A stretch of DNA of 64,000 bases. Origin: Candidatus Levybacteria bacterium RIFCSPHIGHO2_01_FULL_41_15. GTDB taxonomy: Bacteria > Patescibacteriota > Microgenomatia > Levybacterales > UBA12049. Location of the stretch: NCBI GenBank assembly GCA_001782165.1, contig MFNV01000006.1, positions 444-64,443 on the forward strand, in the 5' to 3' direction. Shown piece after piece: positions 2,041 to 52,758 of the stretch (positions within the stretch are counted from its first letter, which is position 1; each line of letters starts with the position of its first letter). The notes below the pieces were generated by a model, which was not told where the DNA came from, made no database searches, and worked only from the letters and a program-made list of their open reading frames with translations. The translations under genes were made by a program, and so were the position numbers.

Positions 2041-2049
2041 TGGTATAAT
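2041..2049 (+). promoter_or_regulatory. Extended -10 element TGGTATAAT, candidate promoter for the Fic gene
   Basis: TGnTATAAT match, followed by direct repeat atcttatcagaatcttatcaag. Confidence 0.3.
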
Positions 2050-2168
2050 AATCTTATCAGAATCTTATCAAGTTACTGTCAGCGAAAATGAAAGATCAAA
2101 TTTTTGAAGCTAAATTTTTCACAATTTTCCCTATTGCCAAAATGATGAGATTATGATAAATTTTAATT

Positions 2169-27719: not shown

Positions 27720-28945
27720 AATTTATTTTTAAACTTTAAAACAAGTGAGACAAGAATGAGATAATATCCTGCCGCAAACTGCCAAGGGAAATCTTCGATT
27801 TCCAGAGATCCCCCTAAATCCGAAAAGAGGGAGACAATTTTGTCGAAATAAAAAATTAGAGGAAAGGCAAGAAGAATCACCGCTTTACCTGCCAATTCCC
27901 AAAATATACCCAAGGATCCTCCCACTGCGCCGATGACCATAAGAATAGGGACAGTCCAGAGCACCAATGCATTTACAAAGACTGACCAAATCGAATAGGT
28001 TCCGAAATTTGCAATAAGAATGGGAAGAGTGGCGGCTTGGGCAGACAAAGTTATTATCAGATCTTCTCCTATTAAAGTTATGTTCAAAGCTTTTTTTATT
28101 GTGTCTGAGAAAAAGAAAAACGGTCTTATGGATAAAAGCCCAAAAGTTGCTGCGAAAGAAAGCTGAAAACCTATATCAAATATCGTCAATGGATTTATGA
28201 AAATCATTAAGTATCCCGCGACCATGAGGGCATAAAAAGAAAGTCTTTGTCTGCCCAAAATTTGAGCAGACAAAGCAAGTATTCCCATAATTGTCGCTCT
28301 TACTATTGATGCTTCAAACCCAGACAAAACTGCATAAAAGAGAACCCCCGAAACTGTAAGAAAAAGGGCAATCTGCCTCTTTAAGAAGAACGAGAATACT
28401 CCTCCTATAAACCCGCCGAAAAGTGTTATATTCATTCCCGAAGCCGCAATTACATGCAAGACTCCCGCAATTCTTAAATTGTCCAAAAATTCCGAAGACA
28501 TATTCCTCCTTATTCCAAAAGCAATGCCCAAAAGCAAGGACGAATAATCCGAAGGCAATGTTCTCTCAAATAGGTATATTAATTTTTGCCGCAATACTGA
28601 TATAAATTTAAAAATAGAATTCTCATCTTCTATCTTTTGTATTTTCGGAAAAGACAAAATAAAAATCTCATTTTTATTTAGCACTCCGACTTTTAATTTG
28701 CCAGAAACTCTTATTCGATCTTGATAATTAAATTCAGGATGAGGTGAAGTTATTATTAAAATTCTGTTCAAATCTAAATTAGCAGATACTATTTGCCGAC
28801 TGCCAGATATTTTGGGCTGTGATTTGATCTGGGTTACAAAATTAACTTCTTCTCCGTCCTTTAAATCTTGTCTATTTTGATACTCCAAAAATGCTCGGAT
28901 TCCAAGAACGAGAATAAGAACCAAAAAGACAGAGGCAATTCTCAT
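27716..28945 (-). CDS. comEC: ComEC/Rec2 DNA-uptake channel, membrane (competence) domain
   Basis: N-terminal OB/DUF4131-like region plus polytopic membrane domain typical of ComEC. Confidence 0.7.
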   Translation of the reverse strand: MRIASVFLVLILVLGIRAFLEYQNRQDLKDGEEVNFVTQIKSQPKISGSRQIVSANLDLNRILIITSPHPEFNYQDRIRVSGKLKVGVLNKNEIFILSFPKIQKIEDENSIFKFISVLRQKLIYLFERTLPSDYSSLLLGIAFGIRRNMSSEFLDNLRIAGVLHVIAASGMNITLFGGFIGGVFSFFLKRQIALFLTVSGVLFYAVLSGFEASIVRATIMGILALSAQILGRQRLSFYALMVAGYLMIFINPLTIFDIGFQLSFAATFGLLSIRPFFFFSDTIKKALNITLIGEDLIITLSAQAATLPILIANFGTYSIWSVFVNALVLWTVPILMVIGAVGGSLGIFWELAGKAVILLAFPLIFYFDKIVSLFSDLGGSLEIEDFPWQFAAGYYLILVSLVLKFKNKL

Positions 28946-29574
28946 TAATAAATCGTAATTTTATCTTTTATTTTATCGAAGACCGAGCTGCCCACTATTT
29001 TTTTTGAAAGCAGATCATCTATGGTCTGGTAAGGCCTCCCTTGTATTATTTTTGATGCCGTAGCAGGCCCTATTCCAGACAAAGTATCTAATTCTTTATC
29101 AGATGCAGTATTTATGTTTATTAAGCCTCCTGATTGAATACTGGCTCCTCCCTGAACTTGGGAAGAGGTAAATGTTTCCCCTTCAAACGGTATATAAATT
29201 TTTATTCCGTCCGTAACTTTTAAAGCAAGATTTAGATTCTTGGCTACCCAATTTCTATCTGCACCTGAAGAAAGACCTCTGGCTGCTACCAGTACGTCTT
29301 TTACCCTTGATTCCTTGGGCAAATTATAAACTCCGGGAGAAACAACCGCTCCTTCTATATCTACTACGATCTGGCTATCTTTTTTATTACCTGAATTCAC
29401 TTCCGATGATTGGCTTGCTTTCTCAAATGCAATATCATTTGAGTTTGATGATGAAACTAATAACCCTATCACACCATATCCTAAAAGTATCACTCCCAAA
29501 AAACCCAAAATTAGCGGCAAGAGGTTCTGTCGGATAAGAGGAACTAAAGAGTCACTAAGGTTTTTATAATCCAT
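28945..29574 (-). CDS. comEA: ComEA DNA-binding competence protein (SLBB + tandem helix-hairpin-helix)
   Basis: ININTASDKELDTLSGIGPATASKIIQGRPYQTIDDL HhH motif. Confidence 0.75.
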   Translation of the reverse strand: MDYKNLSDSLVPLIRQNLLPLILGFLGVILLGYGVIGLLVSSSNSNDIAFEKASQSSEVNSGNKKDSQIVVDIEGAVVSPGVYNLPKESRVKDVLVAARGLSSGADRNWVAKNLNLALKVTDGIKIYIPFEGETFTSSQVQGGASIQSGGLININTASDKELDTLSGIGPATASKIIQGRPYQTIDDLLSKKIVGSSVFDKIKDKITIY

Positions 29575-33167: not shown

Positions 33168-33767
33168 TTGATTATGAGACTGCTTCTTCAATCCCTCCTT
33201 ATTCTCTTTTCGTTTGCTCTTGTCTTTGTATGGCAGGATTCCCCCCTTTCAGGCTACACGCTTCAGATCATAGGTTTTCTAATAGCTGTCTATATCATAA
33301 GTTCTCTTGCTAAGTCCCGCAAGGGAAAACAAATTTCTCTTGGGGGTCCCTTAGGGGTTTTTATTTTAAATACCATTATTCTTCTTTTTGTCTTTGCGAC
33401 AGGCGGTCTGTCTTCCTCCTTTTTCTTTCTTCTCTACTTTGTGGTTCTGGCACTCGTTTTTATATTTGAACCTTATGCTGTAATCCCCTTTGTTATGGGG
33501 ATCGTTCTTATTTTTCTTCCTTCTGCTATCAAGGACGATGTCGTCGCAAACTTTATTAAGCTTGGCTCTATAGTTTTGATTTCTCCCCTTGCATTTTTCT
33601 TTGGCAGAGAATATCAAAAAAGCGGCCAAGACGAAGAAGCTTTTGAAAAAATTGAAGAGGATGTAAAGGATGTTCTAAAAAGCGAGAAAGGGAAACTTGA
33701 AGAAGAAGATGTAAAAAAACTTGAAGACGTGATTGAAGAGGCTGAAGAGGCTGAAAAACCCCAATAA
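33168..33767 (+). CDS. Polytopic membrane protein with acidic C-terminal tail
   Basis: 4-5 predicted TM helices; EE/DD-rich C-terminus. Confidence 0.45.
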   Translation: MIMRLLLQSLLILFSFALVFVWQDSPLSGYTLQIIGFLIAVYIISSLAKSRKGKQISLGGPLGVFILNTIILLFVFATGGLSSSFFFLLYFVVLALVFIFEPYAVIPFVMGIVLIFLPSAIKDDVVANFIKLGSIVLISPLAFFFGREYQKSGQDEEAFEKIEEDVKDVLKSEKGKLEEEDVKKLEDVIEEAEEAEKPQ

Positions 33768-34482
33768 ATTTATGAAAAAAGCCCTGAATCTACTCTTTCT
33801 TGTTTTTTGTCTGACCTTTTATCTTCTAACTACCAAATTCACCCAAGCCCAAAATATATCAAATGATAATTATATAATACAAACCAATGAGATAGAACAG
33901 AGTATCTTCCCTCAGAATCCAATAGAAAATGATTCCGGACGTTTCGGTACTATCAAAAAAGACATGGGGGCCTTGCTCGGGTTTGATGATATCTTAGCTG
34001 CAAATTTCTTCATTTTCTCTATCCAAAACAACATAATTGACTACGGTGACATATCGCCTACCGATCCGGTGGTAAGAGAAAGTAATTTAACCTTAAGCTC
34101 TAGACCCGCTCATGGTTTTGTCATTTTTGCCTGGGAAAATCATCCGCTGGCTGACGCTCCTTTTGAAAATCTGGTGCCGGATGCAACTTGCGATAGCGGG
34201 GCGTGCTCAGAAAAGAATCCTGGAACATGGAGCAACAATTTAACTTACGGATTCGGATTCAGATGCGAAAATGAAGGTGTTTTATGCCTCAATTTCCCCA
34301 AGGATTCATTTAAGCAGTTTGCGGATGAGTCCAAGAATGAATACCCCCAAGCTATTCTTAAAGGTAAAGGGCAAGAACCAGATATCAAAATCAAAATTAT
34401 TTATAAGCTAAACTTTTCTTCTTCACAGCCTAAGCAAACCTATTTGAACAACGTTACATTTGTTGTTCTCCCCTCTTTATGA
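33733..34482 (+). CDS. Secreted hypothetical protein (signal peptide, 4 Cys)
   Basis: N-terminal hydrophobic LNLLFLVFCLTFYLL; CDSGACSEK...CENEGVLC. Confidence 0.4.
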   Translation: MKRLKRLKNPNKFMKKALNLLFLVFCLTFYLLTTKFTQAQNISNDNYIIQTNEIEQSIFPQNPIENDSGRFGTIKKDMGALLGFDDILAANFFIFSIQNNIIDYGDISPTDPVVRESNLTLSSRPAHGFVIFAWENHPLADAPFENLVPDATCDSGACSEKNPGTWSNNLTYGFGFRCENEGVLCLNFPKDSFKQFADESKNEYPQAILKGKGQEPDIKIKIIYKLNFSSSQPKQTYLNNVTFVVLPSL

Positions 34483-35405
34483 AAAAACTTATTTCAGTTT
34501 TATTTTTAATGTTTTTAATAAATTATTTAGTTCCCTCCAAAGCATTGGCGGAGGACATTTCTTTTGGCGTATACCCCCCGATTATTAAGATCAGGGCCAA
34601 ATCTTCTTCCAAAGTTTCGGCTGCGATAAAAATAAAAAATTTTTCCGGCAGAGAAATAAGTCTTCAAGTAGTTTTAAGACCCTTTGAGGATGCAAAAACT
34701 CAGGACGGACAATTCAAGTTCATTTTATACAAAGATTATACGAATGAACTTGCCAATTTTTTATCCAAAATAAGGATAGTAGAAAAAGATCAATCTGTAT
34801 CAGAATTGATCATAGGACCCGAACAGGAGAAGAATTTGAATCTCATAATTGACATCGGTAAACTCAGCGAACATCGGGATTACTATTTTTCAGCTGTATT
34901 CCTTACACACAATAATCACAGTTCCTCTAATAGCTTTACAAGAATAATACAGGGAGTAGGATCAAACATATTAGTATCAATGGGTGATGGGCAACAAAAT
35001 CTACAGATTGAAGATTTTACTGTTCCCTTCACCCAAACCAAAAAGACCCTTGACTTCAGCTTTATTTTGACCAATTCCTCCGATAGATTTTCAACCATAA
35101 AGCCATATATTTTGGTAAAAAATATCTTTGGCAAGCAAATAGAAAGAATTGACTTCAGCCAAACCAATATCCTTGCAAAATCCTCAAGAAATTTTACGGC
35201 TAAAGAAGCCGAATTCATAAATACAAAAGGTGGTGAGTTTTTACTCGGGCCCTATACTACAACCCTGATATTGAATAATGAGGAAAAAATACTCACGAAG
35301 AATGCCAACTTTGTTTCTCTTCCCTTAAAACATGTCTTAATCTTGACACTGATCTTAATATTTCTTATATTTACAACAGCGAGAATCAAAAGCAGGGTTT
35401 TTTGA
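34479..35405 (+). CDS. Secreted protein with C-terminal TM anchor (possibly DUF916-like cell-surface protein)
   Basis: Signal peptide, then FGVYPPIIKIRAKSSSKVSAAIKIKNF, then C-terminal LILTLILIFLIFTTARIKSRVF. Confidence 0.35.
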   Translation: MKKLISVLFLMFLINYLVPSKALAEDISFGVYPPIIKIRAKSSSKVSAAIKIKNFSGREISLQVVLRPFEDAKTQDGQFKFILYKDYTNELANFLSKIRIVEKDQSVSELIIGPEQEKNLNLIIDIGKLSEHRDYYFSAVFLTHNNHSSSNSFTRIIQGVGSNILVSMGDGQQNLQIEDFTVPFTQTKKTLDFSFILTNSSDRFSTIKPYILVKNIFGKQIERIDFSQTNILAKSSRNFTAKEAEFINTKGGEFLLGPYTTTLILNNEEKILTKNANFVSLPLKHVLILTLILIFLIFTTARIKSRVF

Positions 35406-35920
35406 TTAGGACTAAGACCAAGATAAAATCTTTAATAAAATCTTTTACTAATAAACTGACAACTAGATCAAACTCCCCGAAAATTCAATCCAAAAAAATA
35501 AATAAGCAACCATATCACTCAATTTATTAAATTGCCAAAAGATATCCTCTAGTTTTAAGGGTCTGGTAATTTCTAACTAAATAAAGACCAACAACGTTAC
35601 GTGAGTACGTTTCAAAAAGTAAATTTTACAAGGCTAAAAAATAAGTATATCAAAATAAGTCAAGAACAAATTCACACAATCTGATATTGTTTAATATAGA
35701 TTTATATAAAAGCTGAGGAGTTAAAAGACGAATTTTTATTGAATATTTTCTCCAATTAGGATTTTCACAAAATTTTCCATTTTTTGTACATACTATATGT
35801 CTTCCAAATTTAACAACAAAACATATAGAAATATATCGTTTCTTATTTACTCTAGGCTATTGACAAGCAATAATAAATTTATCTATTCTGTTTATGGAGA
35901 GCAAAAATAACCTTATAACT

Positions 35921-35928
35921 TGTATAAT
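35921..35928 (+). promoter_or_regulatory. Extended -10 TGTATAAT about 40 nt upstream of the giant gene
   Basis: cttgtataatccgtataat. Confidence 0.3.
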
Positions 35929-35969
35929 CCGTATAATTTCAAAGCTAGATTGAGTTTTTCACATAAATT

Positions 35970-38900
35970 ATGGACTTTCTGAGTTTATTCAAATCCTTCC
36001 TAATTGAATCGGGTAAAGTATCTAAGGTTACTCTAAAAAATTATCTTTCTGATATAAGATTTTTCATATTTTGGTATGAGAGGTTTTACTCTCAGCCATT
36101 CTCTCCAACATCCATAGATTACTCTGTTGTACAAGCTTTTAAAAATTATCACTTCGACAGGATCGCCTTCTCGTCTCTTGATCGCAAACTTTCTGCTTTA
36201 AGAAAATTCTTTAGTTTTCTCAAAGAGAAAGGATTCATTGCTTCTGTTCCTTTTCAGGAGAAATCGAAAGAAGCAGAAGATAAGTTTTCACTTAAAGAAT
36301 TTAAGAATTTTCTATTCAGGCAAAACATTTCATCAGTTTCTTCCAAGAATTATCTGATTGACATAACTCAATTCCTAAACTGGGCGGATCAAGTAATCAA
36401 ACCCAGCGAACATTGGATAGTTTCTCAAAGAGATCTTTATTCAAGGATAGATAATGAACTCGTCAATGAGTATAAGAGAAGATTAATCGATCAGGGATTT
36501 TCTCCCCTTTCTGTAAACAGAAAGCTTTCTTCAATAAGAAAGCTCATTTTCTGGGCAATTAAAGAAGGGAAAATCAAAAAAAATAGATTTGATTTCATAA
36601 AAGAAAAAGGGCTTTTCCCCCTCAGCACAAAAGGGTCTACGTTGACCATTCAAGGAGGTTTTGCAGATTTTCTGACCCCTAAGATAGAAGAAAAGGCTAT
36701 GACCTATTCAAAGATTCCCCCAATCAGGGTAGCTCAGAAAATATTAGTTCTTTTTTCCTCAATCTATGATGATCTAATCATAGATCCCATCGCAGAATTC
36801 ATTAGCTTTTTGAACTTACTTCTTTTTAGGTTTGATAGAAAATCCATTTTCAAGTCAGATATCAAGAAAATCCCGCGAATTCAAGATCCAATAAAAATTT
36901 CAAATGTTGGCAAAAACTTTTATGCTCCGCTAAATATTTCTACAAAAGGGATGTCTTGGATCCGAAAAATATCGTATTCCATTCGATTTATACGACCAAA
37001 GTGGTATTTAAGATATCATAACTATGCAGTTGTCCATTACATACACTTCTCCATCCTTGTCATATTCATGACTGTTTTGGGTTTTGGGATTTATCAAAAG
37101 TTTTTCCTGCCAACAACAAATGTCCTTGGAGAGTCAATATTTTCCCTTTCCAGAATTCTTACGGTAAAACAGAGACTTACAGATTCTTTAGGAAATCCCA
37201 TCACCGAGAAAACTCTCATAAGATTCGCTATCTATGGGGATCCAGAAGCCTCAGGCTCAGCAATGCTTTGGGAAGATGTCAAAACAGTAGAACCCGATGA
37301 AAACGGCTTTTTCCAAACAAGCCTGGGGGAAAAAACTCCTATTCCCTCGAGCATCTTTTTCACTTATCCCTCCCTCTGGCTTGGAACAAGCATAGGCCAA
37401 ACATCCGAACTTAGACCCCGACAGCAGCTGACAAATGTTTCCCTAGCAACAAGCGCCCAGACTCTGAAGGGTCTGGGAATTAACTCACCCCTAAATTATA
37501 AAAATGTAATCCTGTCTCTTGATTCTTCAGGCAACCTGTCTCTTGGGGGACCATCTCATATTTTCCAGGCAATAAACGGGCAATTTGTTCTATCCGGAAA
37601 TATACTAACTCTTTCGACAATTTCGGGAACAAATACAAATATTGAAATTGTGCCTGATGGTTTGGGAAAAGTTGACATCCAAAAACCCATTCAAAATACC
37701 TCAAACAATAACAACATCCCAACTGCAATCGGAAGCGTTGAAATAGACGATCTTGTAAGTATACTGGCCACCTCAAGTGGTCAATCGGCCCTTACTATCA
37801 ATCAAAACGACTTAGGACCCATTATTAGCGCCTCTGCAAGCGGGATTGCCAAATTTACCATAGACAGCTTCGGGAATATGACTCTGTCAGGAGACATAAG
37901 TCTTTCGGGAAATAATGTAAATGTTTTTGCCACATCCCCTCAGTCAACCTTATCTATCGGCTCGGAAGACGGAGGCAATCTTATTCTCCAGCCTGTTTCA
38001 ACCGGTGAAATCCAATTTTTCTCCCCCTTAAATTTTTTATCTTCCGAGGGTACGCTTAAGCTTTCAGGGAATTTGATACTCTCAGGAACATCTTCACCCT
38101 CCTCCTCCTTTAGACTCTATGTGGAGGATTCTCAACCAAGTACCGCGGCTGCCCAAATATTCAATACAAGCGCAGGCTCAAAGGCAAGCGGACTTTTAAT
38201 AAAACTTGGAAACACTTCCGGCACAACAAATACAGATAATAAGTGGGTTACCTTTGAGCAGAGCGGGATCGGGATTGTGGGGATGATAAAAGGAAACGGA
38301 GAAAAAGGCGTAACTTTTCAGGGAAACGGGGTTTCTGATTTTGCTGAATATCTTAAAAAGGATGAGAATGAAAACATTCCCTTTGGCTCTCTGGTCTGCA
38401 TTGATGAAAAAGGTATGGTTACAGGATGTTCGTATAATAATCGGAATATTGTAGGGGTGGCGTCTGAAAATCCAACTTTCTTAGGAGGAGAGAACCTTGG
38501 GAATAAATCGATCCCGGTGGGCCTTGTGGGACAAGTTCCTGTTTTTGTATCAAACATAAACGGAGACATAAAACCAGGAGATCCTCTCACTTCATCTTTT
38601 ATAAAAGGTCTGGCCGCAAAGGCAAAAGACGAAGGAAGAATAGTAGGAAGAGCCCTTGAGAGCTTTGACTCCCTAAACTGTATCAATGAATCTTCGAATT
38701 TCGGTCTTGTTGAGAAAAGGATCTGCAAAGGAAAAATCCAGACTCTCTTGAACGTTTCGCATTATGAACCTTCTCCCTTAGACCAAGCCCAAAAAATCAA
38801 GGAACTTGTTCTTCAGGAAGTAGACAACGGTATCTTTGAGATAAAAGATTCACTGGGAATAGCAGTTGAAGAGATTCAGGCTTTTAACAAAAGTATAATC

Positions 38901-40088
38901 GGCACACTTGAAGCCGGAATAATCAATGCACGAAGGATTTCAGTTGAAACCCTAAATCTAAACGCACTATTTATAGAAGGGGAAAGTCTAAAAGACTATA
39001 TTGCTCAGATTATTCAAAACCAGCCTCAGATAAAATCCCCCATTGCAGAAATTGATGAGATAAAGACAAATATAATAAGCCCCCTTTCGCAGGAAAAAGA
39101 CATAAAGATAAAAATCGGAGAAACATCAAATCTTGCAGTTGAAAATCTTAAAGGACAAACAGTTTTTAATGTAGATAGTGAAGGAAACGCAACTTTGGCA
39201 GGAGAACTTTCTACCTCCTCTTTAAAAACAAATGAAATACAATCTGATAATGCCACTGTTAGTGGGGTTCTTCATGCAAAAAAAATCGTAACAGATGAGA
39301 TAGAAAATCAGAGTGAGAACAACTCTGTCTTTGCGAATATAGCATCATTTTCCTCTCAGCTTGTCTATGTTCAAAATCTAAAAGCGCAGACGGCTAATTT
39401 TACGGATGGACTCATAGCCTTAGGGCCTTCCTCTCTGATTGATACTGCAATATCGGGTCAGCTTTCGATTAATTCAAATTTAATTTTGGCAGAAAATTCT
39501 ATAAATGTCCTTGGTTCTGATCTTGAGATCCAGTCTGTAAGACAAGGCGGAGTTTCTCTTATGGGAGGTTTTGTTTATATAGATACAGATGGAAACCTAA
39601 AAGTCGGGGGAAATGCAGAGTTTGCAAAAGACATAACTGTAAAAGGAATAATATTTGCAAATATTATATCCCCTATTCCTGACAGTGATTTGATAGTTGA
39701 CATAAACGCAGAAAATAAATCTTTTATAATTAAAAACAAAGACAATCCTGTTGTTTCCGTAACGGGAGATGGAAATCTGACGGCATCGGGAAGTGGCACA
39801 TTTGGCAAACTGAATCTTTCTCTGATAAAACCTGCTCTTGCAGTTTCAGAAACCGAAGCAGTAGCAACCGGAGCTGCAGGAGTAGCCACAATTAGCGCTT
39901 ATCAAAAAGAACTGACAATCAAAAACAGTCTTATTACAAAAGACTCTCTGATATATGTAACTCCAAGAACTGATACAAAAAATATTGTAATTTACCTTTT
40001 AAGACAAGTGCCTGGAATATCATTTACTGTGGGAGTGAATACTCCCTCAGGATACAATATTCCGTTTAACTTTCTTATAATAAATTAG
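35970..40088 (+). CDS. Giant (1372 aa) membrane-anchored protein: three tandem phage-integrase N-terminal SAM-like (core-binding) domains, TM helices, huge extracellular Gly/Ser/Thr-rich fibre-like repeat domain
   Basis: Repeats VTLKNYLSDIRFFIFWYE, SSKNYLIDITQFLNWADQ, SVNRKLSSIRKLIFWAIKEG; TM HYIHFSILVIFMTVLGFGIY; remainder paralogous to the extracellular domain of the 1..1850 gene. Confidence 0.65.
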   Translation: MDFLSLFKSFLIESGKVSKVTLKNYLSDIRFFIFWYERFYSQPFSPTSIDYSVVQAFKNYHFDRIAFSSLDRKLSALRKFFSFLKEKGFIASVPFQEKSKEAEDKFSLKEFKNFLFRQNISSVSSKNYLIDITQFLNWADQVIKPSEHWIVSQRDLYSRIDNELVNEYKRRLIDQGFSPLSVNRKLSSIRKLIFWAIKEGKIKKNRFDFIKEKGLFPLSTKGSTLTIQGGFADFLTPKIEEKAMTYSKIPPIRVAQKILVLFSSIYDDLIIDPIAEFISFLNLLLFRFDRKSIFKSDIKKIPRIQDPIKISNVGKNFYAPLNISTKGMSWIRKISYSIRFIRPKWYLRYHNYAVVHYIHFSILVIFMTVLGFGIYQKFFLPTTNVLGESIFSLSRILTVKQRLTDSLGNPITEKTLIRFAIYGDPEASGSAMLWEDVKTVEPDENGFFQTSLGEKTPIPSSIFFTYPSLWLGTSIGQTSELRPRQQLTNVSLATSAQTLKGLGINSPLNYKNVILSLDSSGNLSLGGPSHIFQAINGQFVLSGNILTLSTISGTNTNIEIVPDGLGKVDIQKPIQNTSNNNNIPTAIGSVEIDDLVSILATSSGQSALTINQNDLGPIISASASGIAKFTIDSFGNMTLSGDISLSGNNVNVFATSPQSTLSIGSEDGGNLILQPVSTGEIQFFSPLNFLSSEGTLKLSGNLILSGTSSPSSSFRLYVEDSQPSTAAAQIFNTSAGSKASGLLIKLGNTSGTTNTDNKWVTFEQSGIGIVGMIKGNGEKGVTFQGNGVSDFAEYLKKDENENIPFGSLVCIDEKGMVTGCSYNNRNIVGVASENPTFLGGENLGNKSIPVGLVGQVPVFVSNINGDIKPGDPLTSSFIKGLAAKAKDEGRIVGRALESFDSLNCINESSNFGLVEKRICKGKIQTLLNVSHYEPSPLDQAQKIKELVLQEVDNGIFEIKDSLGIAVEEIQAFNKSIIGTLEAGIINARRISVETLNLNALFIEGESLKDYIAQIIQNQPQIKSPIAEIDEIKTNIISPLSQEKDIKIKIGETSNLAVENLKGQTVFNVDSEGNATLAGELSTSSLKTNEIQSDNATVSGVLHAKKIVTDEIENQSENNSVFANIASFSSQLVYVQNLKAQTANFTDGLIALGPSSLIDTAISGQLSINSNLILAENSINVLGSDLEIQSVRQGGVSLMGGFVYIDTDGNLKVGGNAEFAKDITVKGIIFANIISPIPDSDLIVDINAENKSFIIKNKDNPVVSVTGDGNLTASGSGTFGKLNLSLIKPALAVSETEAVATGAAGVATISAYQKELTIKNSLITKDSLIYVTPRTDTKNIVIYLLRQVPGISFTVGVNTPSGYNIPFNFLIIN

Positions 40089-40091
40089 AAT

Positions 40092-42245
40092 TTGTTCTTG
40101 ACATTGTTCTTTCGTGCTGTTAGATTAAGAAATATGGAACAAGAAAAAGGTGAAATTGCTTCCTATCTTGAAAACGCCTCAATCTTTCTCCTCGGACTTC
40201 TTCTTCTTATCTTTCCTGTTTTTATGCTTACTTTTACCACCGATGCCTTTACTCTTCCAAAACAGATTCTTCTTGGTGTGGTAGCTTTCCTGGTTCTTCT
40301 TCTATTCGGAGTAAAATCAATAATAAGAGGGCAGGTAATAGTACGGAGAACTCCTTTTGACATACCTATTTTCATCTTTGCTGCTATTGTTCTTCTTTCT
40401 AGTCTTTTTGCAGTTAATAAGGCTGATTCACTTACGTCTTTTGTTACACTTTTTTTTGTTGTGCTTTCTTATTTTGCAATTGTTAACTCAACCAAAGAAA
40501 AAAATGCCGTATTTCTCCTTATTACCTCCCTTTTGACGGGTGCTTCGATCGCGGGAGTTCTTGAAACTCTGACATTTTTGAAGATTTTTGTCTTACCCTT
40601 CCCTTTTACAAAAGCTCAGACTTTTAACTCTTTCGGCTCTCTTGCCGATCAGACAATCTATTTTTTTATGCTTATTCCTTTTATTCTCTACTTGATTTTG
40701 CCGATGTTTCAGAAGAGAAAAAGAGGTTTGGAGCAAGAAGCGGTTAACTATGAAGATTCCTTAAAAGGCAAAAATAATACCCTTCCCTTTGCCCTCCTTG
40801 GGATAGTTGTTGCAGTGGGACTTCTTTTGACTTCCTACCTACTCTTTAAGACCCCTGCCCAAAACGGAGGACTTCTTGCTCTTCCTTATGAAACAGGGTT
40901 TCAGACGGGATTTGCAGCAATCTCACAGGACACAGGAAGAGTATTTCAGGGTTTTCTCCTAGGCTCTGGGTACGGCACCTATATAACAGATTTTACGCGT
41001 TTTAAGCAGCCTTCCTATAATCAAAATCAAAATTTATGGAATCTTACATTTTTCAGATCATCAAGTTTTCTCCTGGAATTATTGGCAACAACCGGAATTT
41101 TGGGATTTCTTTCTTTCATATACATTTTATCTCGGATCTTTAAAAACAGGACAGTTCTTTGGGGAATGTCCTTTGCAATACTTGCCGCAATTTTTCTCCC
41201 TTTTTCCTTCTCCTCAATTGCGCTTTTCTTTATACTTCTTGCTCTTCTTTCGGCTTTAAGAGGGGCATCATCAAAGGCACACAGCGAAGGATTCTTCGAT
41301 GTTGAAATACAACTAGTCACTCTTAAGAAAGGTCTTATTGCCTTTGATCCAACTCCCGGCAAAGCCAGAAATTCTATTCTTCCTGTAATTTTGGTGGCAA
41401 TTTTGGCGGTATTAACAGGATTAATAGGATATTTTGGGGGAAGATATGTAATTTCAGATTTTCATTTTCAGGCTTCGCTTGTTGCTGCCTCACAAAACAA
41501 GGGTCTTGAAACTTACCAAAGACAGGGAAAAGCGATCGGGATTTTCCCTTACAGAGACGCGTATTATAGAATCTTTTCTCAGACCAATCTTGCTCTTGCC
41601 AACTCTCTTGCGTCTACCCAGCCTGCGGGGACAACTCCAAGCGCTCAAATCCAGCAAACAATATCTACGCTAATCCAGCAGTCAATAAACGCCGGGCGAA
41701 CAGCTGTTACATATTCCCCGCAAACTATGCTTAATTGGCAGAATCTTGCTTCTATTTACCGAAGTTTGATTGGTTTTGGGCAGAACGCCGATCAGTTCGC
41801 CATATTGGCGAATCAACAGGCAATAACTCTTGATTCCAACAATCCTCAAGAATATATCAATCTTGGAGGAATTTATTATCAGCTGGGTCAATGGGATAAT
41901 GCAATAAGGCAATTTCAGATTGCCGCAGCACTTAAACCTGACCTTGCAAACGCCTATTACAATCTTGGCCATGCTCTCCAGGAAAAAGGAAGCCTAAATG
42001 AAGCAATGACACAGTACCAGACTGTCCAAGGATTAGTAGCGCAGGACAAAACAAATCTGGATAAAATAAATAAGGAGATCGAAGATCTTGGGAAGATAAT
42101 TGAATCGGGGGGAACTGCAGGTGGTCCAAACCCAGCCACTGCGGGACCTTTGACAGTTTCAACTCCGGAAGCCCAGCTTCCGCCGCAAAATCCTCCTGTG
42201 AAAATCCCTCCCCCAACAGAGGAAGCAACCAAATCCTCAAGATAA
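40092..42245 (+). CDS. Polytopic membrane protein, O-antigen ligase/polymerase-like, with C-terminal TPR repeats and a Pro-rich tail
   Basis: About 12 TM helices; TPR AYYNLGHALQEKGSLNEAMTQYQ; PPQNPPVKIPPPTEE tail. Confidence 0.5.
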   Translation: MFLTLFFRAVRLRNMEQEKGEIASYLENASIFLLGLLLLIFPVFMLTFTTDAFTLPKQILLGVVAFLVLLLFGVKSIIRGQVIVRRTPFDIPIFIFAAIVLLSSLFAVNKADSLTSFVTLFFVVLSYFAIVNSTKEKNAVFLLITSLLTGASIAGVLETLTFLKIFVLPFPFTKAQTFNSFGSLADQTIYFFMLIPFILYLILPMFQKRKRGLEQEAVNYEDSLKGKNNTLPFALLGIVVAVGLLLTSYLLFKTPAQNGGLLALPYETGFQTGFAAISQDTGRVFQGFLLGSGYGTYITDFTRFKQPSYNQNQNLWNLTFFRSSSFLLELLATTGILGFLSFIYILSRIFKNRTVLWGMSFAILAAIFLPFSFSSIALFFILLALLSALRGASSKAHSEGFFDVEIQLVTLKKGLIAFDPTPGKARNSILPVILVAILAVLTGLIGYFGGRYVISDFHFQASLVAASQNKGLETYQRQGKAIGIFPYRDAYYRIFSQTNLALANSLASTQPAGTTPSAQIQQTISTLIQQSINAGRTAVTYSPQTMLNWQNLASIYRSLIGFGQNADQFAILANQQAITLDSNNPQEYINLGGIYYQLGQWDNAIRQFQIAAALKPDLANAYYNLGHALQEKGSLNEAMTQYQTVQGLVAQDKTNLDKINKEIEDLGKIIESGGTAGGPNPATAGPLTVSTPEAQLPPQNPPVKIPPPTEEATKSSR

Positions 42246-47359: not shown

Positions 47360-49558
47360 TTACCCAACCGGCTTAGTATATTTTTCCCTTGAAACCCTTA
47401 CCACCTTTTCCCTGTTTTGAGTAACGCTCTTAGGAAGAGGAAGAGTCTGACACAGAAACGGCGACTGGGTAATTCCGTCAACGGCAAGTTTTATAACTGC
47501 TTGGAAATTCCCCAACAAAAGTAAATCTTCTGCCTTAAATCTCTCCCCAAATTCTTTCCCCACATAAGCTGAGTCTTGTGCGCCAATGAGAAACGACATC
47601 ATAGTTCCTACATTTCCGAAGATTGCCGCTCTTACATCTTCGGGAACTTGTGATATATATTGATTCGCAAGTATAAGGTTAAGTCGGTATTTTCGGGCTT
47701 CCGATAAAATCTTTATAAAACTTGTTGTTGCAAAATTCTGAAACTCATCAACATAAAGATAAAAATCCCTGCGTTCTGCCTCTGGCATCGAAACTCTGTT
47801 CATCGCCGCAAGCTGAATCTTGGTAATAGCCATTGCTCCCAAAAGCGCTGCATTATCCTCACCTATTCTTCCTTGCGACAGATTCAAAATTACAATTTTT
47901 CCTTCATTCATAATCTTTTCAAAATCAACTGTTGATTTGGGATTTTTAATAATATTTCGCATAAGGTGGGACGAAGTAAACTGTCCTACTTTGTTTAAGA
48001 TCGGTGAGATAGATTCACTCTTAAGCCTCGGCTGCATTTGCTCAAACTCATTAATCCAATAGTTTCTAAGAACCCTGTCTGTCATCTTCTCAACCACTCT
48101 GTGTCTGAAGTTATCATCCGTTAAGATATCCTGTACCATAAGAAGTGTCGCATCAGGCAGACTGATTACCGATAAAAGAGCGTTTCGCAGGATATATTCA
48201 AGTCTTGGTCCCCAAGTATGACCGTATAATTTATGAAAAATTGCAACAATCCCTGAGACCACGAGTTCTTTTTGTTCAGGGTTTTCAACAGACAATGGGT
48301 TTAGCGAAAAAGCATGTATCTTGTCCGAAGGATCAAGATAAACTACATCATTTACCCGGAAAGACGGGATGTAATTTAATAATATTTCGCAAAGATCACC
48401 GTGAGGATCGATTACGCAAATCCCTTTGCGGTTTCTGAAATCACTTATTGCCATATTTGCAATAAGTGTTGATTTTCCCGTCCCTGTTTTTCCGATGAGA
48501 TAAAAATGTTTTCGCCGGTCAGCAGATTTTATTCCGAAATTTGTAACTCTGTTTTTAAACTCGGTTTGCGCAAAAAAATTAGTTTCTGTTTTTTCCTGCG
48601 AAGTTAAATATTCGGCAACCGGAAGGTTTTCGGGAGGCTCGGAAAGTATAGTTTTATGCCATGAGATATTGTGAAGTGTTGCGAATTTGGATGTCGGAAA
48701 ATGGAAAAAACTTGCAATCTCCTCAACGTTTAATATCTGATTTGCCGGAACAAACCTTTTGTTTCTTTTAACAAGAGCGCTCATCATTCTTTTTTTCTGC
48801 CAAAGATAAGTCCGGCGAAGTTGAAAACTGTTACCGGAGGGGTTATTAAAAGATGAGAAACTATTTGCAATTTCATACAGGATCTGATGACTTCTCTCCC
48901 GATCTTGCGAAGAAACAGCAATTCTTATTGCCGTTTTGAAACCGTTGAGTTTTATCTTCTCAGAAATTACCTTGGCATAGGGGTTTTGTTGAACTACTCC
49001 TGCGGAATCCTTTTTCTTAGTATTAATTGTTCTCTCTCCTGTCCTTTGCCATCCCGAACCGATTGGTATTAGCAAAACCTGTATCCAGATTTTGTCCTCT
49101 TTTTTTGCTTTTGACAGAACCGAAACAAGAGAAGACATGGGATCAACATCCTTAAAATCGCGAAAAGTCCGAAGTGGGTAAAGATATCCGGACGATATTT
49201 TCATCTGACCAAAGGTCAAATTATTTCTGTTCGAAAGAATTTCAGAAAGAGGATCCCCGCGGGTCTTTAGAAAAAGAGCTTTAGGATACTGGGAAACAAG
49301 CTGGGATTCTATAAAAGTCGTTAGAGTTTGAGGGACTGATATATAAAAATGGATAGTTTGATCTATTACTCCAATCTCCAATGTAATGGGGATTGCAAAT
49401 GAAACAAGATTTAGAACTCTTTTCTTAAGAGAAACAAGACTCGAGAGGAACTGAACCATCGCCTCCGGACTTTCTTCCCCTGTCCTTGAAGTTTTAACCT
49501 CAAGAAGAATTCTGTCGGATTTATTTTCCATAGTCTTATTATACGACATATAAGTCAC
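47360..49558 (-). CDS. Type-IV-secretion coupling-protein-like P-loop ATPase (TraG/TraD/VirD4 family-like), no N-terminal TM
   Basis: Walker A FYLIGKTGTGKST followed by CVIDPHGDL; Walker B-like YLYVDEFQNF; 732 aa. Confidence 0.55.
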   Translation of the reverse strand: MTYMSYNKTMENKSDRILLEVKTSRTGEESPEAMVQFLSSLVSLKKRVLNLVSFAIPITLEIGVIDQTIHFYISVPQTLTTFIESQLVSQYPKALFLKTRGDPLSEILSNRNNLTFGQMKISSGYLYPLRTFRDFKDVDPMSSLVSVLSKAKKEDKIWIQVLLIPIGSGWQRTGERTINTKKKDSAGVVQQNPYAKVISEKIKLNGFKTAIRIAVSSQDRERSHQILYEIANSFSSFNNPSGNSFQLRRTYLWQKKRMMSALVKRNKRFVPANQILNVEEIASFFHFPTSKFATLHNISWHKTILSEPPENLPVAEYLTSQEKTETNFFAQTEFKNRVTNFGIKSADRRKHFYLIGKTGTGKSTLIANMAISDFRNRKGICVIDPHGDLCEILLNYIPSFRVNDVVYLDPSDKIHAFSLNPLSVENPEQKELVVSGIVAIFHKLYGHTWGPRLEYILRNALLSVISLPDATLLMVQDILTDDNFRHRVVEKMTDRVLRNYWINEFEQMQPRLKSESISPILNKVGQFTSSHLMRNIIKNPKSTVDFEKIMNEGKIVILNLSQGRIGEDNAALLGAMAITKIQLAAMNRVSMPEAERRDFYLYVDEFQNFATTSFIKILSEARKYRLNLILANQYISQVPEDVRAAIFGNVGTMMSFLIGAQDSAYVGKEFGERFKAEDLLLLGNFQAVIKLAVDGITQSPFLCQTLPLPKSVTQNREKVVRVSREKYTKPVG

Positions 49559-52633: not shown

Positions 52634-52677
52634 CGAATGAGCAAAAATAGTCCGACTTCGCTTGCAAGGAGTTTTTG

Positions 52678-52701
52678 GTACTTTTGTCGACACAAAAGTA
52701 C
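52678..52701 (+). promoter_or_regulatory. 10-bp inverted repeat GTACTTTTGT-cgac-ACAAAAGTAC about 57 nt upstream of the GT-C gene ATG
   Basis: Read directly. Confidence 0.4.
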
Positions 52702-52758
52702 AGAAAAAATGTTTTATTGTTAATTGTTAATTTTTTGAATTCATTGTACATTATATTT

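What the first reader, a model, noticed from the sequence alone, without database searches (positions are those of the whole stretch)
35970..40088. Giant membrane-anchored proteins fusing DNA-binding domains to a TM and an extracellular fibre
Two proteins share the same paralogous Gly/Ser/Thr-rich beta-repeat ectodomain (e.g. TLSIGSEDGGNLILQP vs GSATTGDVLIQPNSDTGDYFKF) and both have cytoplasmic DNA-binding N-termini. This 1372-aa ORF has three tandem integrase-type SAM-like core-binding domains. The <1..1850 gene has a MerR/excisionase-type HTH. The architecture suggests single-polypeptide transmembrane signalling from an extracellular fibre or adhesin to DNA, or DNA tethering at the membrane. 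The system is very poorly characterised. A 564-bp AT-rich leader precedes this gene, and a 717-aa O-antigen-ligase-like/TPR membrane protein follows it.
Basis: partly seen in the sequence, partly recalled or inferred. Interest (0 to 1): 0.7.

Follow-up and report, generated by a model that had tools for sequence, protein, structure and literature searches.

The report
Membrane-anchored phage-like fibre with DNA-binding tail
A conserved, single-copy gene of Levybacteria (tiny, probably host-dependent bacteria) encodes a membrane protein with two integrase-type DNA-binding domains inside the cell and a long phage-tail-fibre-like fibre outside; no paper found here describes this fusion, and it could link contact with a host cell directly to DNA.

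Summary
The 1372-aa ORF (35970..40088, +) is a real gene. It is conserved, single-copy and syntenic in at least 47 Levybacteria/Microgenomates species. The family has 607 representatives at 50% identity (E<=1e-30), and members reach 6048 aa.

The architecture is confirmed with corrections. There are two, not three, XerC/D-type SAM-like core-binding domains and no recombinase catalytic domain. A basic juxtamembrane region and one TM helix follow (N-in by charge). The ectodomain is built from phage tail-fibre/tailspike modules. It contains an internal phi29-gp12-type intramolecular-chaperone domain (motif SDFAEY) that opens a constant C-terminal module of about 600 aa.

The second gene (1848..1, minus strand) is a MerR-HTH/TM/fibre protein. 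Its ectodomain shares only one module of about 150 columns with the first, visible by profile comparison but not by BLASTP.

New here: the AT-rich leader holds a gene-specific element conserved across species. It comprises a promoter, 9-nt-spaced GTATAAT heptamers and two TTTTCAC boxes. The boxes also occur in the MerR gene's leader.

Best reading: a trimeric host-recognition fibre whose cytoplasmic end binds DNA, acting as a membrane-tethered regulator or a nucleoid tether. The function is inferred, not shown. I rate it a new variant of known kinds, of moderate to high interest.

The parts
35970..40088 (+). Gene for the 1372-aa SAM-SAM-TM-fibre protein
   Evidence: ORF. 57 full-length homologues, 31-52% identical over 100% of the length. 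607 representatives at E<=1e-30. 47 species-level genomes with one locus each.
35970..36263 (+). SAM-like core-binding domain 1 (aa 1-98), basic
   Evidence: Pfam Phage_int_SAM_1 at aa 6-87, E 5.6e-16. NCBIfam XerC N-terminus, E 1.6e-16. AF2 four-helix domain with pLDDT above 90. Foldseek hits to XerD, lambda Int and XerA core-binding domains. Family mean net charge +5.5.
36282..36584 (+). SAM-like core-binding domain 2 (aa 105-205), basic
   Evidence: Second Phage_int_SAM_1 stretch and SAM_5 at aa 158-208. AF2 helices 108-198. Repeated motifs KNYxxDxxxFxxW and NRKLSSIR. Net charge +6.4.
36585..37025 (+). Cytoplasmic linker (aa 206-352): disordered stretch, long helix 250-288, strongly basic juxtamembrane motifs (YSxIPPxR, NIxKxFYAP, RPxWYxxYH)
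   Evidence: AF2. Conserved motifs. Net charge +9.6 for aa 291-352. The helix reaches a TM-like hydrophobicity score in only about 11 of 57 relatives.
37026..37109 (+). Single transmembrane helix (aa 353-380), predicted N-in/C-out
   Evidence: Kyte-Doolittle scan. AF2 helix 353-378. Positive-inside counts 596 against 321.
37110..37889 (+). Conserved membrane-proximal ectodomain (aa 381-640), beta-sandwich plus fibre start
   Evidence: The best-conserved part of the family, 46-63% identity to the query per 40-residue block. AF2 pLDDT 80-90 for aa 392-490. Used as the family signature.
37890..38279 (+). Variable fibre shaft (aa 641-770). In relatives this is where the extra length sits, up to more than 4500 aa.
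   Evidence: Low conservation and occupancy. The motif lies 550-5389 aa from the N-terminus. Includes the module shared with the MerR protein and with the Bdellovibrio Bd2133 fibre.
38280..38849 (+). Intramolecular-chaperone (Peptidase_G2 / phi29 gp12-type) domain, aa about 771-960, with motif S789-D790-F-A-E-Y (38334-38351)
   Evidence: Pfam PF11962, 26.8 bits against a cut-off of 25. AF2 pLDDT above 90. Foldseek hit to premature phi29 gp12 (3suc), E 1.7e-4. BFVD preneck appendage proteins, TMt 0.62-0.64. xD[FW]AEY found in 76 relatives.
38850..40085 (+). Constant C-terminal module (aa 961-1372), ending in a beta-sandwich like tailspike / K1-lyase C-terminal domains
   Evidence: Conserved in 99 of 134 representatives. 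Motif-to-C-terminus distance 434-700 aa. AF2 pLDDT about 90 for aa 1290-1372. Weak K1-lyase_C hit and fold hits.
35406..35969 (+). 564-bp AT-rich leader with a conserved regulatory layout
   Evidence: 25.5% GC. Alignment of orthologous leaders. No Rfam match. No significant RNA fold, z +0.51. No convincing small ORF.
35848..35889 (+). Conserved TACTCTAGG followed by a promoter-like TTGACA (35860-35865), 18 nt, TATTCT (35884-35889)
   Evidence: Promoter scan, 10 of 12 matches. Conserved in orthologues. TTGACA lies 32-84 nt upstream of the heptamers in 43 of 43 loci that carry the motif.
35914..35947 (+). Three 9-nt-spaced heptamers: TATAAC (35914-35919), GTATAAT (35922-35928), GTATAAT (35931-35937), then TTCAAAGCTA (consensus YTYGARGCTA)
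   Evidence: TATAATNNGTATAAT occurs only here in the 64-kb window. It occurs on the + strand in 46 of 52 fetched loci, once in 42 of them, and upstream of the gene in nearly all (L034 and a second copy in L043 lie elsewhere).
35762..35769 (+). TTTTCACA box 1
   Evidence: TTTTCAC is 28-fold enriched in orthologous leaders and present in 37 of 45. One preferred position is about 180-220 nt before the ATG.
35956..35963 (+). TTTTCACA box 2, just before the start codon
   Evidence: The second preferred position is about 19-30 nt before the ATG.
40092..42245 (+). Conserved downstream neighbour: 717-aa protein with many TM segments and C-terminal TPR repeats (Wzy_C-like, below threshold)
   Evidence: Pfam. 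TM scan. Immediately downstream in every locus that reaches that far. tblastn hit in 17 of 47 loci, many of which are truncated.
33733..35405 (+). Conserved upstream pair of secreted proteins (249 aa; 308 aa with a C-terminal TM anchor), family unknown
   Evidence: ORFs. No Pfam or NCBIfam family. Upstream on the same strand in 31 and 36 of 47 loci. The pair is duplicated in L028.
1..1848 (-). Second gene: MerR-HTH (aa 3-53), TM (aa about 83-112), G/S/T-rich fibre ectodomain. Cut by the window edge.
   Evidence: Full length 1018 aa (P0064). Shares a fibre module of about 145 columns with the main protein.
1849..2168 (-). Leader of the MerR gene. TGTGAAAA (2116-2123); TTGACA (2039-2034) with TTTTCACA in the spacer (2031-2024); 4-6 T[GA]GACA repeats at 10-12 nt spacing (about 1992-1921); two GC hairpins (1891-1857).
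   Evidence: Sequence. Conserved in orthologous loci L054 and L055. TTTTCACA positions.

Best explanation
Shown:
- The gene encodes a bitopic membrane protein that is a single-copy, syntenic core gene of Levybacteria.
- Its first ~350 residues are two basic XerC/D-type core-binding (SAM-like) domains followed by a conserved basic juxtamembrane segment. There is no recombinase catalytic domain.
- One TM helix follows.
- The ~1000-residue C-terminal part is built from phage tail-fibre/tailspike modules. It contains an internal intramolecular-chaperone (IMC) domain, and that domain opens a constant module of about 600 aa.

Inferred:
- The N-terminus is cytoplasmic and the fibre is outside the cell.
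- The IMC drives trimerisation, as it does in phage fibres. One fibre would then carry three TM helices and six DNA-binding domains at the inner face of the membrane. The protein may cut itself at S789/D790.
- The fibre recognises surface structures of a host cell or other target, as phage receptor-binding proteins and Bdellovibrio MAT fibres do. Its variable-length shaft sets its reach.
- The cytoplasmic domains bind DNA.

My preferred version is a ToxR/CadC-style membrane-tethered regulator. I expect it to act at least on its own promoter, where 9-nt-spaced GTATAAT heptamers lie just downstream of a conserved TTGACA/TATTCT promoter. The next most likely version is a non-specific tether between the nucleoid and the fibre base.

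The MerR-HTH/TM/fibre gene at 1848..1 is a second protein with the same layout. It has its own leader repeats and shares TTTTCACA boxes with the first gene.
For: Architecture: Pfam, NCBIfam and fold assignments.

Topology: one conserved TM helix and a strong positive-inside bias across 57 relatives.

Selection and importance:
- 607 representatives at E<=1e-30, with the same domain order in 99 of 134 examined.
- One locus in each of 47 species genomes.
- Conserved neighbours down to 31% identity.
- Housekeeping surroundings (LeuRS, comEA/comEC, Rho), not a prophage.

Fibre function:
- Profile hit to the Bdellovibrio MAT fibre Bd2133 (8ond, E 1e-5). MAT fibres sit on the predator surface and bind prey glycans, and they also split into S74 and non-S74 subfamilies (PMC10769870).
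- The family has G2-type members (76) and S74-type members (22, with an intact SDxRLK dyad motif).
- The N-terminal anchor and the C-terminal module are constant, and the shaft between them varies in length.

DNA-binding side:
- Both SAM domains are basic and keep the invariant K-N-Y..D..F..W and R..S(S/A)LR motifs shared with XerC/D.
- The gene-specific heptamer repeats are tied to the promoter rather than to the start codon.
- No significant RNA fold is predicted for the 95 nt from the predicted transcription start into the coding region (35896-35990).
- The MerR-type gene has an analogous arrangement of promoter followed by direct repeats.
- The two gene types are adjacent in L053.
Against: - No DNA binding, trimerisation, cleavage, surface location or host binding has been shown. 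All of these are inferred from domain homology.
- An isolated core-binding domain is not a known transcription-factor module, and in recombinases it binds DNA weakly on its own (my background knowledge, not tested here).
- The heptamers are TATAAT sequences, so they could simply be tandem -10 boxes of a second promoter. In three orthologues they end only 11 nt before the ATG.
- 9-nt spacing puts successive sites on different faces of the helix.
- A second hydrophobic helix (aa about 250-288) passes a TM threshold in about 11 of 57 relatives. The topology is therefore not proven.
- The AF2 monomer model of the ectodomain is of low confidence over about a third of its length.
- The lifestyle of Levybacteria is itself inferred.
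Confidence: 0.45

Rival explanations
1. It is a surface fibre with an inert anchor. The fibre is an adhesin or surface structure. The SAM-like domains no longer bind DNA and serve as a cytoplasmic oligomerisation or protein-docking module, as the HTH of RodZ docks MreB. They may also simply enforce type-II membrane insertion.
For: The ectodomain evidence is the same as for the main explanation. The conserved juxtamembrane motifs could be protein-protein contacts, for example with the invariably adjacent TPR membrane protein. Core-binding domains alone bind DNA weakly (my knowledge). RodZ is a precedent for a cytoplasmic HTH used for protein binding (my knowledge).
Against: Two unrelated DNA-binding folds (integrase SAM-like and MerR HTH) occupy the same position in two fibre proteins of one genome. 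That is easier to explain if DNA binding is the selected property. Both SAM domains stay strongly basic across the family. Both genes carry conserved direct repeats next to their promoters.
Confidence: 0.25
2. It couples to DNA uptake or transfer. The cytoplasmic core-binding domains hold incoming or outgoing DNA at the base of a host-contacting fibre and cooperate with the competence machinery.
For: comEA and a split comEC lie about 4-9 kb upstream of the gene, and homologues of comEA or comEC were detected upstream in only 5 and 2 of 47 loci, many of which are truncated. A VirD4/TraG-like coupling ATPase lies at 47360..49558. Patescibacteria are thought to depend on DNA uptake (background knowledge).
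Against: LeuRS and other genes on the opposite strand separate the genes, so the linkage may be plain chromosomal synteny. No DNA channel or ATPase domain is part of the protein or its immediate operon.
Confidence: 0.1
3. It is a MYRF-like released transcription factor. The intramolecular-chaperone domain trimerises and cuts the protein, freeing a DNA-binding fragment from the membrane.
For: Like MYRF, one polypeptide holds a DNA-binding domain, a phage IMC domain and a TM helix (PMC3742443 and PMC3742440). 22 relatives carry the S74 Ser-Lys dyad motif SDxRLK.
Against: The order is DBD-TM-IMC. The TM helix lies between the DNA-binding domains and the IMC, so self-cleavage would release the distal ~600-aa ectodomain module and not the DNA-binding end. 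Release of the N-terminus would need a separate protease, for which there is no evidence.
Confidence: 0.05
4. It is a site-specific integrase, as some database records name it, or a decayed prophage fusion of an integrase gene and a tail-fibre gene.
For: Source names 'site-specific integrase', 'site-specific recombinase XerD' and 'tail fiber domain-containing protein'. SAM-like and tail-fibre domains are both typical of phages.
Against: No catalytic domain is present. The XerC and XerD models score 60 and 48 bits against cut-offs of 335 and 330. The full-length architecture is conserved in hundreds of lineages with one syntenic copy per genome, among housekeeping genes, and the reading frame is intact.
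Confidence: 0.02

Closest known systems
XerC/XerD and phage tyrosine integrases (N-terminal SAM-like core-binding domain, PF02899)
   Same: Both N-terminal domains match this domain in sequence (E 1e-16) and in fold (XerD 1a0p, lambda Int 2oxo TMt 0.73). They keep the TxxNYxxDLxxFxxW and RxLSxLRxF motifs.
   Different: The domain is duplicated in tandem. There is no catalytic domain. The domains are fused to a TM helix and a ~1000-aa ectodomain. The protein cannot be a recombinase.
ToxR / CadC-type bitopic one-component regulators
   Same: Cytoplasmic N-terminal DNA-binding domain, single TM helix, extracytoplasmic C-terminal domain. The proposed logic is that an outside event controls DNA binding at the membrane.
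   Different: ToxR and CadC use an OmpR-type winged helix and a small periplasmic sensor. Here the DNA-binding domain is an integrase core-binding pair (or a MerR HTH), and the outer part is a very long, presumably trimeric fibre. Regulation is unproven.
MYRF / MrfA (eukaryotic membrane-bound transcription factors with a phage ICA domain; PMC3742443, PMC3742440, PMC3828593)
   Same: One polypeptide combines a DNA-binding domain, a TM helix and a phage tailspike intramolecular-chaperone domain. Trimerisation through that domain is expected.
   Different: [quoted passage not shown] Here the TM helix lies between them, so cleavage cannot free the DNA-binding end.
Phage tail fibres and tailspikes with C-terminal intramolecular chaperones (phi29 gp12 / Peptidase_G2; K1F endosialidase / Peptidase_S74)
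   Same: IMC domain by Pfam and by fold (3suc; BFVD preneck appendage proteins). Triple-beta-helix-like fibre segments. A tailspike-like C-terminal beta-sandwich. G2 and S74 variants are exchanged among relatives.
   Different: This is a cellular, chromosomal, single-copy gene. It is anchored by a TM helix instead of a virion adaptor. The IMC is internal, with about 250-500 further residues following the ~190-aa IMC domain (434-700 aa lie between its motif and the C-terminus), whereas in the phage profiles it is terminal.
Bdellovibrio bacteriovorus MAT (mosaic adhesive trimer) fibres (PMC10769870)
   Same: Cellular phage-fibre-like proteins of a bacterium that lives on other bacteria. Profile-level sequence similarity (Bd2133, 8ond, E 1e-5). 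S74 and non-S74 subfamilies.
   Different: In the passages I read (a term search), MAT fibres are not described with a cytoplasmic DNA-binding domain or this TM anchor; I did not read the whole paper. This family has a constant C-terminal module instead of diverse tips, and one copy per genome rather than about 21.
RodZ (cytoplasmic HTH, one TM helix, periplasmic domain)
   Same: A bitopic protein whose N-terminal 'DNA-binding' fold faces the cytoplasm.
   Different: The HTH of RodZ binds MreB, not DNA (my knowledge). RodZ has no fibre and no SAM-like domain. It is relevant only as a warning that the fold need not mean DNA binding.

Membership tests
Tyrosine recombinase (XerC/XerD/phage integrase) | N-terminal SAM-like core-binding domain | tested here: met
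   PF02899 E 5.6e-16 with two stretches. Foldseek hits to XerD and lambda Int core-binding domains.
Tyrosine recombinase (XerC/XerD/phage integrase) | C-terminal catalytic domain (PF00589) with the R-H-R-Y active site | tested here: not met
   No PF00589 hit at E<=1. After aa 205 come a linker, a TM helix and the ectodomain.
Tyrosine recombinase (XerC/XerD/phage integrase) | Full-length score above the NCBIfam equivalog cut-off | tested here: not met
   XerC 60.5 bits against 335; XerD 47.8 against 330.
ToxR/CadC-like bitopic transcription regulators | N-terminal cytoplasmic DNA-binding domain, one TM helix, extracytoplasmic C-terminal domain | tested here: met
   Domain order and positive-inside charge bias. 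The topology is predicted, not measured.
ToxR/CadC-like bitopic transcription regulators | OmpR-type winged-helix DNA-binding domain | tested here: not met
   Only SAM-like (or MerR) domains were found.
ToxR/CadC-like bitopic transcription regulators | Sequence-specific DNA binding and control of transcription | not testable with these tools
   Candidate operator repeats were found, but binding was not measured.
MYRF-like membrane-bound transcription factors | DNA-binding domain, IMC/ICA domain and TM helix in one chain | tested here: met
MYRF-like membrane-bound transcription factors | [quoted passage not shown] | tested here: not met
   The TM helix is at aa 353-380 and the IMC at aa about 771-960.
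MYRF-like membrane-bound transcription factors | Peptidase_S74 Ser-Lys dyad (SDxRLK) | tested here: not met
   Absent in this protein, which is G2-type (SDFAEY). Present in 22 relatives.
Phage tail fibre / tailspike with intramolecular chaperone | Peptidase_G2 or S74 IMC domain | tested here: met
   PF11962 26.8 bits against 25. 3suc E 1.7e-4. BFVD TMt 0.62-0.64.
Phage tail fibre / tailspike with intramolecular chaperone | IMC at the extreme C-terminus, released after folding | tested here: not met
   434-700 aa lie between the IMC motif and the C-terminus. In the phage PHROG profiles the domain is terminal. Cleavage itself was not tested.
Phage tail fibre / tailspike with intramolecular chaperone | Encoded in a phage or prophage with virion genes | tested here: not met
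   The neighbours are LeuRS, comEA/EC, Rho and an M23 peptidase. Synteny is conserved in 47 genomes.
Phage tail fibre / tailspike with intramolecular chaperone | Homotrimeric fibre | not testable with these tools
   Only a monomer model could be made. The low-confidence shaft is compatible with an obligate trimer.
Bdellovibrio MAT fibre superfamily | Sequence similarity to MAT fibre repeats; S74 and non-S74 subfamilies | tested here: met
   8ond (Bd2133) E 1.1e-5. Subfamilies in this family and in MAT fibres.
Bdellovibrio MAT fibre superfamily | Location on the cell surface and binding of target-cell glycans | not testable with these tools
   Needs microscopy or binding assays.
MerR-family regulators (second gene, 1848..1) | N-terminal MerR HTH | tested here: met
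   PF00376 E 1.6e-12; PF13411; HTH_17.
MerR-family regulators (second gene, 1848..1) | C-terminal coiled-coil dimerisation and effector-binding domain, soluble protein | tested here: not met
   Only profile positions 1-48 of 69 of MerR_1 are matched. A TM helix at aa about 83-112 and a ~900-aa ectodomain follow.

The most novel reading that the evidence does not exclude
These proteins would be a new class of one-polypeptide contact sensors of host-dependent ultrasmall bacteria. A trimeric, phage-derived fibre touches a host cell. Through a single TM helix per chain, it changes how six integrase-derived core-binding domains (or MerR HTHs in the sister family) hold specific repeats in promoter-proximal DNA. 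Host contact would thus be wired directly to transcription without a kinase or second messenger. The conserved GTATAAT heptamers and TTTTCAC boxes would be the operators.
Probability: 0.2. Interest if true: 0.85.

Novelty: new variant of a known kind. Interest (0 to 1): 0.62.

Why it matters
How Patescibacteria other than Saccharibacteria find and hold their hosts is largely unknown, and no Levybacteria have been cultured. This gene is a single-copy, syntenic, strongly conserved surface fibre. Its shaft length varies from about 1200 to 6000 residues, which makes it a prime candidate for the host-recognition organelle of the whole order.

The fusion to integrase-type (and, in a sister family, MerR-type) DNA-binding domains on the cytoplasmic side is not described in the literature I could search. 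It resembles the eukaryotic MYRF design but with a different topology. If the DNA-binding end is functional, this would be a very direct route from cell contact to the genome.

The conserved leader motifs make the idea testable with simple binding assays.

On the practical side, database records that call these proteins 'site-specific integrase' or 'XerD' are wrong and would inflate counts of mobile elements in these genomes.

Tried and rejected
1. A third SAM-like domain. Neither Pfam, my family HMMs nor the AF2 model shows one in aa 206-352.
2. Close paralogy of the two ectodomains. BLASTP found nothing significant. Only profile comparison found a shared module.
3. A known RNA family or structured leader. 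Rfam gave no hit at the gathering threshold or at E<=5. The RNA fold z-score was +0.51. No credible small ORF was found.
4. A regulon search. I scanned metagenome contigs for the triple heptamer. This says nothing either way.
5. The search for related loci with the 19-sequence alignment failed for lack of a conserved stretch. It was repeated with 5 sequences.
6. A single-sequence PDB search with the IMC region gave only chance-level hits. The profile search and the fold search were needed.
7. Prophage or mobile-element origin of the locus was rejected from the neighbours and the synteny.
8. The 1303-aa ORF at 52675..56586 as a third paralogue was rejected. It is a protein with many TM segments and no family hit, next to a GT2 glycosyltransferase.
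9. The hydrophobic helix at aa 250-288 as a second TM helix was judged unlikely. It passes the threshold in about 11 of 57 relatives, carries charges, and the loop after it is strongly basic.
10. I did not verify the exact cleavage chemistry of G2-type chaperones in a paper. The role of the S/D-x-A-E motif rests on my memory of the phi29 gp12 work.

Full report
**Observation**

The ORF 35970..40088 (+) encodes 1372 aa. It is a real gene. A protein search found an identical entry and 56 further full-length relatives, 31-52% identical over the whole length. Where they are named, they come from Candidatus Levybacteria or the Patescibacteria group, and sources label them 'site-specific integrase', 'XerD' or 'tail fiber domain-containing protein'. 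The window is ordinary chromosome. It carries an ATP synthase operon, LeuRS, ArgRS, Rho, comEA and a split comEC, tRNAs, and no phage genes.

**Cytoplasmic part**

Pfam finds Phage_int_SAM_1 twice (E 5.6e-16), plus SAM_4 and SAM_5, and no integrase catalytic domain. NCBIfam's best models are XerC and XerD, but only their first ~93 positions match. The scores are 60 and 48 bits against cut-offs of 335 and 330.

An AlphaFold2 model of aa 1-400, built on 46 sequences with mean pLDDT 81, shows the following elements:
- two four-helix domains (aa 1-87 and 108-198);
- a disordered linker;
- one long helix (aa 250-288);
- short helices;
- a TM helix (aa 353-378).

Foldseek against the PDB returns XerD, lambda Int, Brujita Int, IntI and XerA core-binding domains. 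The rmsd is 2-3 A over about 95 residues, and TMt is 0.73 against the isolated lambda domain. My family HMMs find two in 117 of 134 representatives.

Both domains are basic (+5.5 and +6.4 on average). The juxtamembrane stretch is very basic (+9.6), and the ectodomain is acidic. In 57 relatives, K+R counts are 596 in the 60 residues before the TM helix and 321 after it. This supports N-in/C-out. A second hydrophobic helix passes a TM threshold in only about 11 of 57 relatives.

**Ectodomain**

Pfam gives Peptidase_G2 'IMC autoproteolytic cleavage domain' at aa 774-841 (26.8 bits, cut-off 25) and a weak K1-lyase_C hit at the C-terminus. The monomer AF2 model has mean pLDDT 63. It has four confident stretches: aa 392-490, about 790-900 (pLDDT above 90), 920-960 and 1290-1372. 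The shaft segments are of low confidence, as expected for an obligate trimer.

The structural and profile searches all point to phage fibres:
- Foldseek on the PDB puts premature phi29 gp12 first (3suc, E 1.7e-4), followed by Klebsiella phage depolymerases, the Pam1 tailspike, K1 lyase and the Sf6 tailspike.
- BFVD gives 116 hits at E<=0.001, led by preneck appendage proteins (TMt 0.62-0.64) and IMC-domain proteins.
- A profile search of PDB sequences adds the Bdellovibrio fibre Bd2133 (8ond, E 1e-5), the Dpo31 tailspike, a hyaluronidase and lambda gpJ.

Bd2133 belongs to the MAT fibres. These lie on the predator's surface, bind prey glycans, and come in S74 and non-S74 forms (PMC10769870).

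**Family anatomy**

A profile of aa 240-640 (juxtamembrane region, TM helix and proximal ectodomain) was searched against 1.84 billion representatives. It found 607 proteins at E<=1e-30. Nearly all of the best 150 begin to match at residue about 230-300, and their lengths run from about 1200 to 6048 aa.

Among members of at least 1150 aa:
- 76 carry xD[FW]AEY (here S789-D790-F-A-E-Y);
- 22 carry the S74 dyad motif SDxRLK;
- the motif lies 434-700 aa (median 601) from the C-terminus, and 550-5389 aa from the N-terminus.

The design is therefore a constant anchor and proximal stalk, a shaft of variable length, and a constant C-terminal module of about 600 aa that begins with the chaperone. In the phage PHROG profiles the S74 domain is terminal, so its internal position here is a real difference. 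If the chaperone cuts as it does in phages, the distal module would be separated from the membrane-anchored fibre, not the DNA-binding end.

**Distribution and context**

A scan of one genome per species found 47 loci in 47 genomes. They are labelled Levybacteria/Levyibacteriota, Microgenomates or Patescibacteria. Some records carry placeholder or evidently mis-binned titles, such as 'uncultured Gammaproteobacteria'.

The neighbourhood is conserved down to 31% identity:
- LeuRS lies on the other strand.
- Two secreted proteins of unknown family lie upstream on the same strand. They were detected in 31 and 36 of 47 loci.
- A gap of about 560 bp follows, then the gene.
- A protein of about 710 aa with many TM segments and TPR repeats lies downstream.

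That protein's Wzy_C hit is below threshold.

**The second gene**

It has a MerR/HTH_17 domain at aa 3-53, one TM helix at aa about 83-112 and a G/S/T-rich ectodomain. The full protein is 1018 aa, and dozens of relatives have the same layout.

BLASTP between the two ectodomains shows only one 24-aa motif (E 0.03-0.05). Profile-profile comparison restricted to the ectodomains gives probability 97.5%, E 7e-12 and score 114 over 145 columns. Eight column-shuffled controls scored 13-17 and the reversed profile scored 22. The two proteins therefore share one fibre module, the same one that matches Bd2133. They are not close paralogues. In locus L053, a MerR-type gene directly follows a SAM-type gene.

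**Leader**

The 564-bp gap before the gene has 25.5% GC. Alignment with orthologues shows a conserved layout:
- TACTCTAGG followed by TTGACA, 17-18 nt, then TATTCT;
- about 25 nt further on, (ATAAT)-NN-GTATAAT-NN-GTATAAT-YTYGARGCTA;
- a TTTTCAC box close to the ATG, and another about 200 nt upstream.

TATAATNNGTATAAT occurs only here in the 64-kb window. It occurs on the + strand in 46 of 52 fetched loci, once in 42 of them, and upstream of the gene in nearly all (L034 and a second copy in L043 lie elsewhere). The heptamers keep their distance to the promoter: 32-84 nt from the -35 element, median 57. Their distance to the ATG is not kept (11-439 nt).

TTTTCAC is 28-fold enriched in the orthologous leaders and present in 37 of 45. 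In the window, four of the nine TTTTCACA copies lie in the leaders of the two fibre genes.

The MerR gene's leader is conserved in L054 and L055. It has:
- a TTGACA promoter with TTTTCACA in its spacer;
- an inverted copy (TGTGAAAA) 85 nt upstream;
- four to six T[GA]GACA repeats at 10-12 nt spacing;
- two GC hairpins before the ATG.

There is no Rfam family, no significant RNA fold (z +0.51) and no credible small ORF. These elements probably act on DNA or as unstructured RNA. The heptamers could be operators or tandem -10 boxes, and I cannot decide between the two.

**Mechanism**

Shown: the domain composition, their order, the conservation, the single-copy syntenic status and the cis-elements.

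Inferred: N-in topology; trimerisation through the chaperone domain; a surface fibre that recognises a host or target surface, by analogy with phage receptor-binding proteins and MAT fibres; and DNA binding by the six core-binding domains of a trimer.

I favour a membrane-tethered regulator that acts at least on its own promoter. Next comes a non-specific nucleoid tether, and then an inert anchor.

The MYRF analogy (PMC3742443, PMC3742440) is striking but fails on topology. The TM helix separates the DNA-binding domains from the chaperone, so self-cleavage cannot release them. The 'integrase' annotation is wrong because no catalytic domain is present.

**Novelty**

Four full-text searches found no description of this fusion. 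Each part is known. What is new is the combination, its internal chaperone with a constant distal module, and its status as a core gene of an uncultured order. I rate it a new variant of known kinds, both bitopic DNA-binding membrane proteins and phage-like cellular fibres. The function is still open.

Noticed in passing
window 35848-35963: Gene-specific conserved leader layout. It runs: TACTCTAGG; TTGACA, 18 nt, TATTCT; three 9-nt-spaced TATAAT-type heptamers followed by TTCAAAGCTA; and two TTTTCACA boxes. It is conserved in about 43 orthologous leaders, down to about 35-40% protein identity.
   Followed up: yes
window 1849-2168 (minus strand): The leader of the MerR-TM-fibre gene holds a TTGACA promoter with TTTTCACA in its spacer, an inverted TGTGAAAA 85 nt upstream, duplicated TGATAAGATT, 4-6 T[GA]GACA repeats at 10-12 nt spacing, and two GC-rich hairpins (1891-1857) just before the ATG. 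These features are conserved in L054 and L055. All four aligned loci end with CCTGCC(C/T)(T/A)ATG.
   Followed up: partly
L053 1-5349: In one metagenome contig, a MerR-HTH/TM/fibre gene (782 aa) directly follows a SAM-type fibre gene (1451 aa) on the same strand. In some genomes the two families are therefore neighbours.
   Followed up: no
window 33733-35405; L028 1-4152: Conserved upstream pair: a 249-aa secreted protein and a 308-aa secreted protein with a C-terminal TM anchor. Neither has a Pfam or NCBIfam family. In L028 the pair is duplicated, and the first members end in a shared ...Y(V/I)ATPTF motif. This looks like a surface-protein cassette of unknown kind.
   Followed up: partly
window about 50000-52200: Island of 56% GC in a 39% GC genome. 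It carries a 337-aa ORF (51041..52054) with one hydrophobic segment and no Pfam family, and it has no Rfam match. It lies next to a VirD4/TraG-like coupling ATPase (47360..49558). It may be horizontally acquired DNA or an assembly chimera.
   Followed up: partly
window 26850-29574 (minus strand): comEA (28945..29574) and a split comEC (Competence domain 27716..28945; metallo-beta-lactamase domain 26850..27719) lie just beyond LeuRS from the fibre cluster. The same order recurs in L001, L004 and the P0025 locus.
   Followed up: partly
relatives P0247, P0226, P0217, P0204: Family members of 4391-6048 aa keep the same N-terminal anchor and the same C-terminal ~600-aa module. All the extra length is inserted in the shaft.
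   Followed up: partly
relatives P0058-P0061: A related set of 927-1298-aa proteins has a single SAM-like domain and a TM helix at aa about 135-185, followed by different ectodomains. The DNA-binding-domain/TM/ectodomain design is therefore modular.
   Followed up: no
PDB chain 9i5v_14: The best PDB sequence match to the SAM-like domain (E 1.4e-8 with the family profile) is a 401-aa chain of a ribosome entry labelled 'Ribosome-associated translation inhibitor RaiA'. Its N-terminus looks like a tyrosine-recombinase core-binding domain. The label or the biology is odd.
   Followed up: no
window 52675-57411: A 1303-aa protein with many TM segments and no Pfam family, directly followed by a GT2 glycosyltransferase. 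This is probably a large membrane glycosyltransferase system for the cell envelope.
   Followed up: no
window 2169-3110: A Fic-domain protein with a C-terminal DeoR-type HTH is divergently transcribed from the MerR-fibre gene. This arrangement is conserved in L054 and L055.
   Followed up: no
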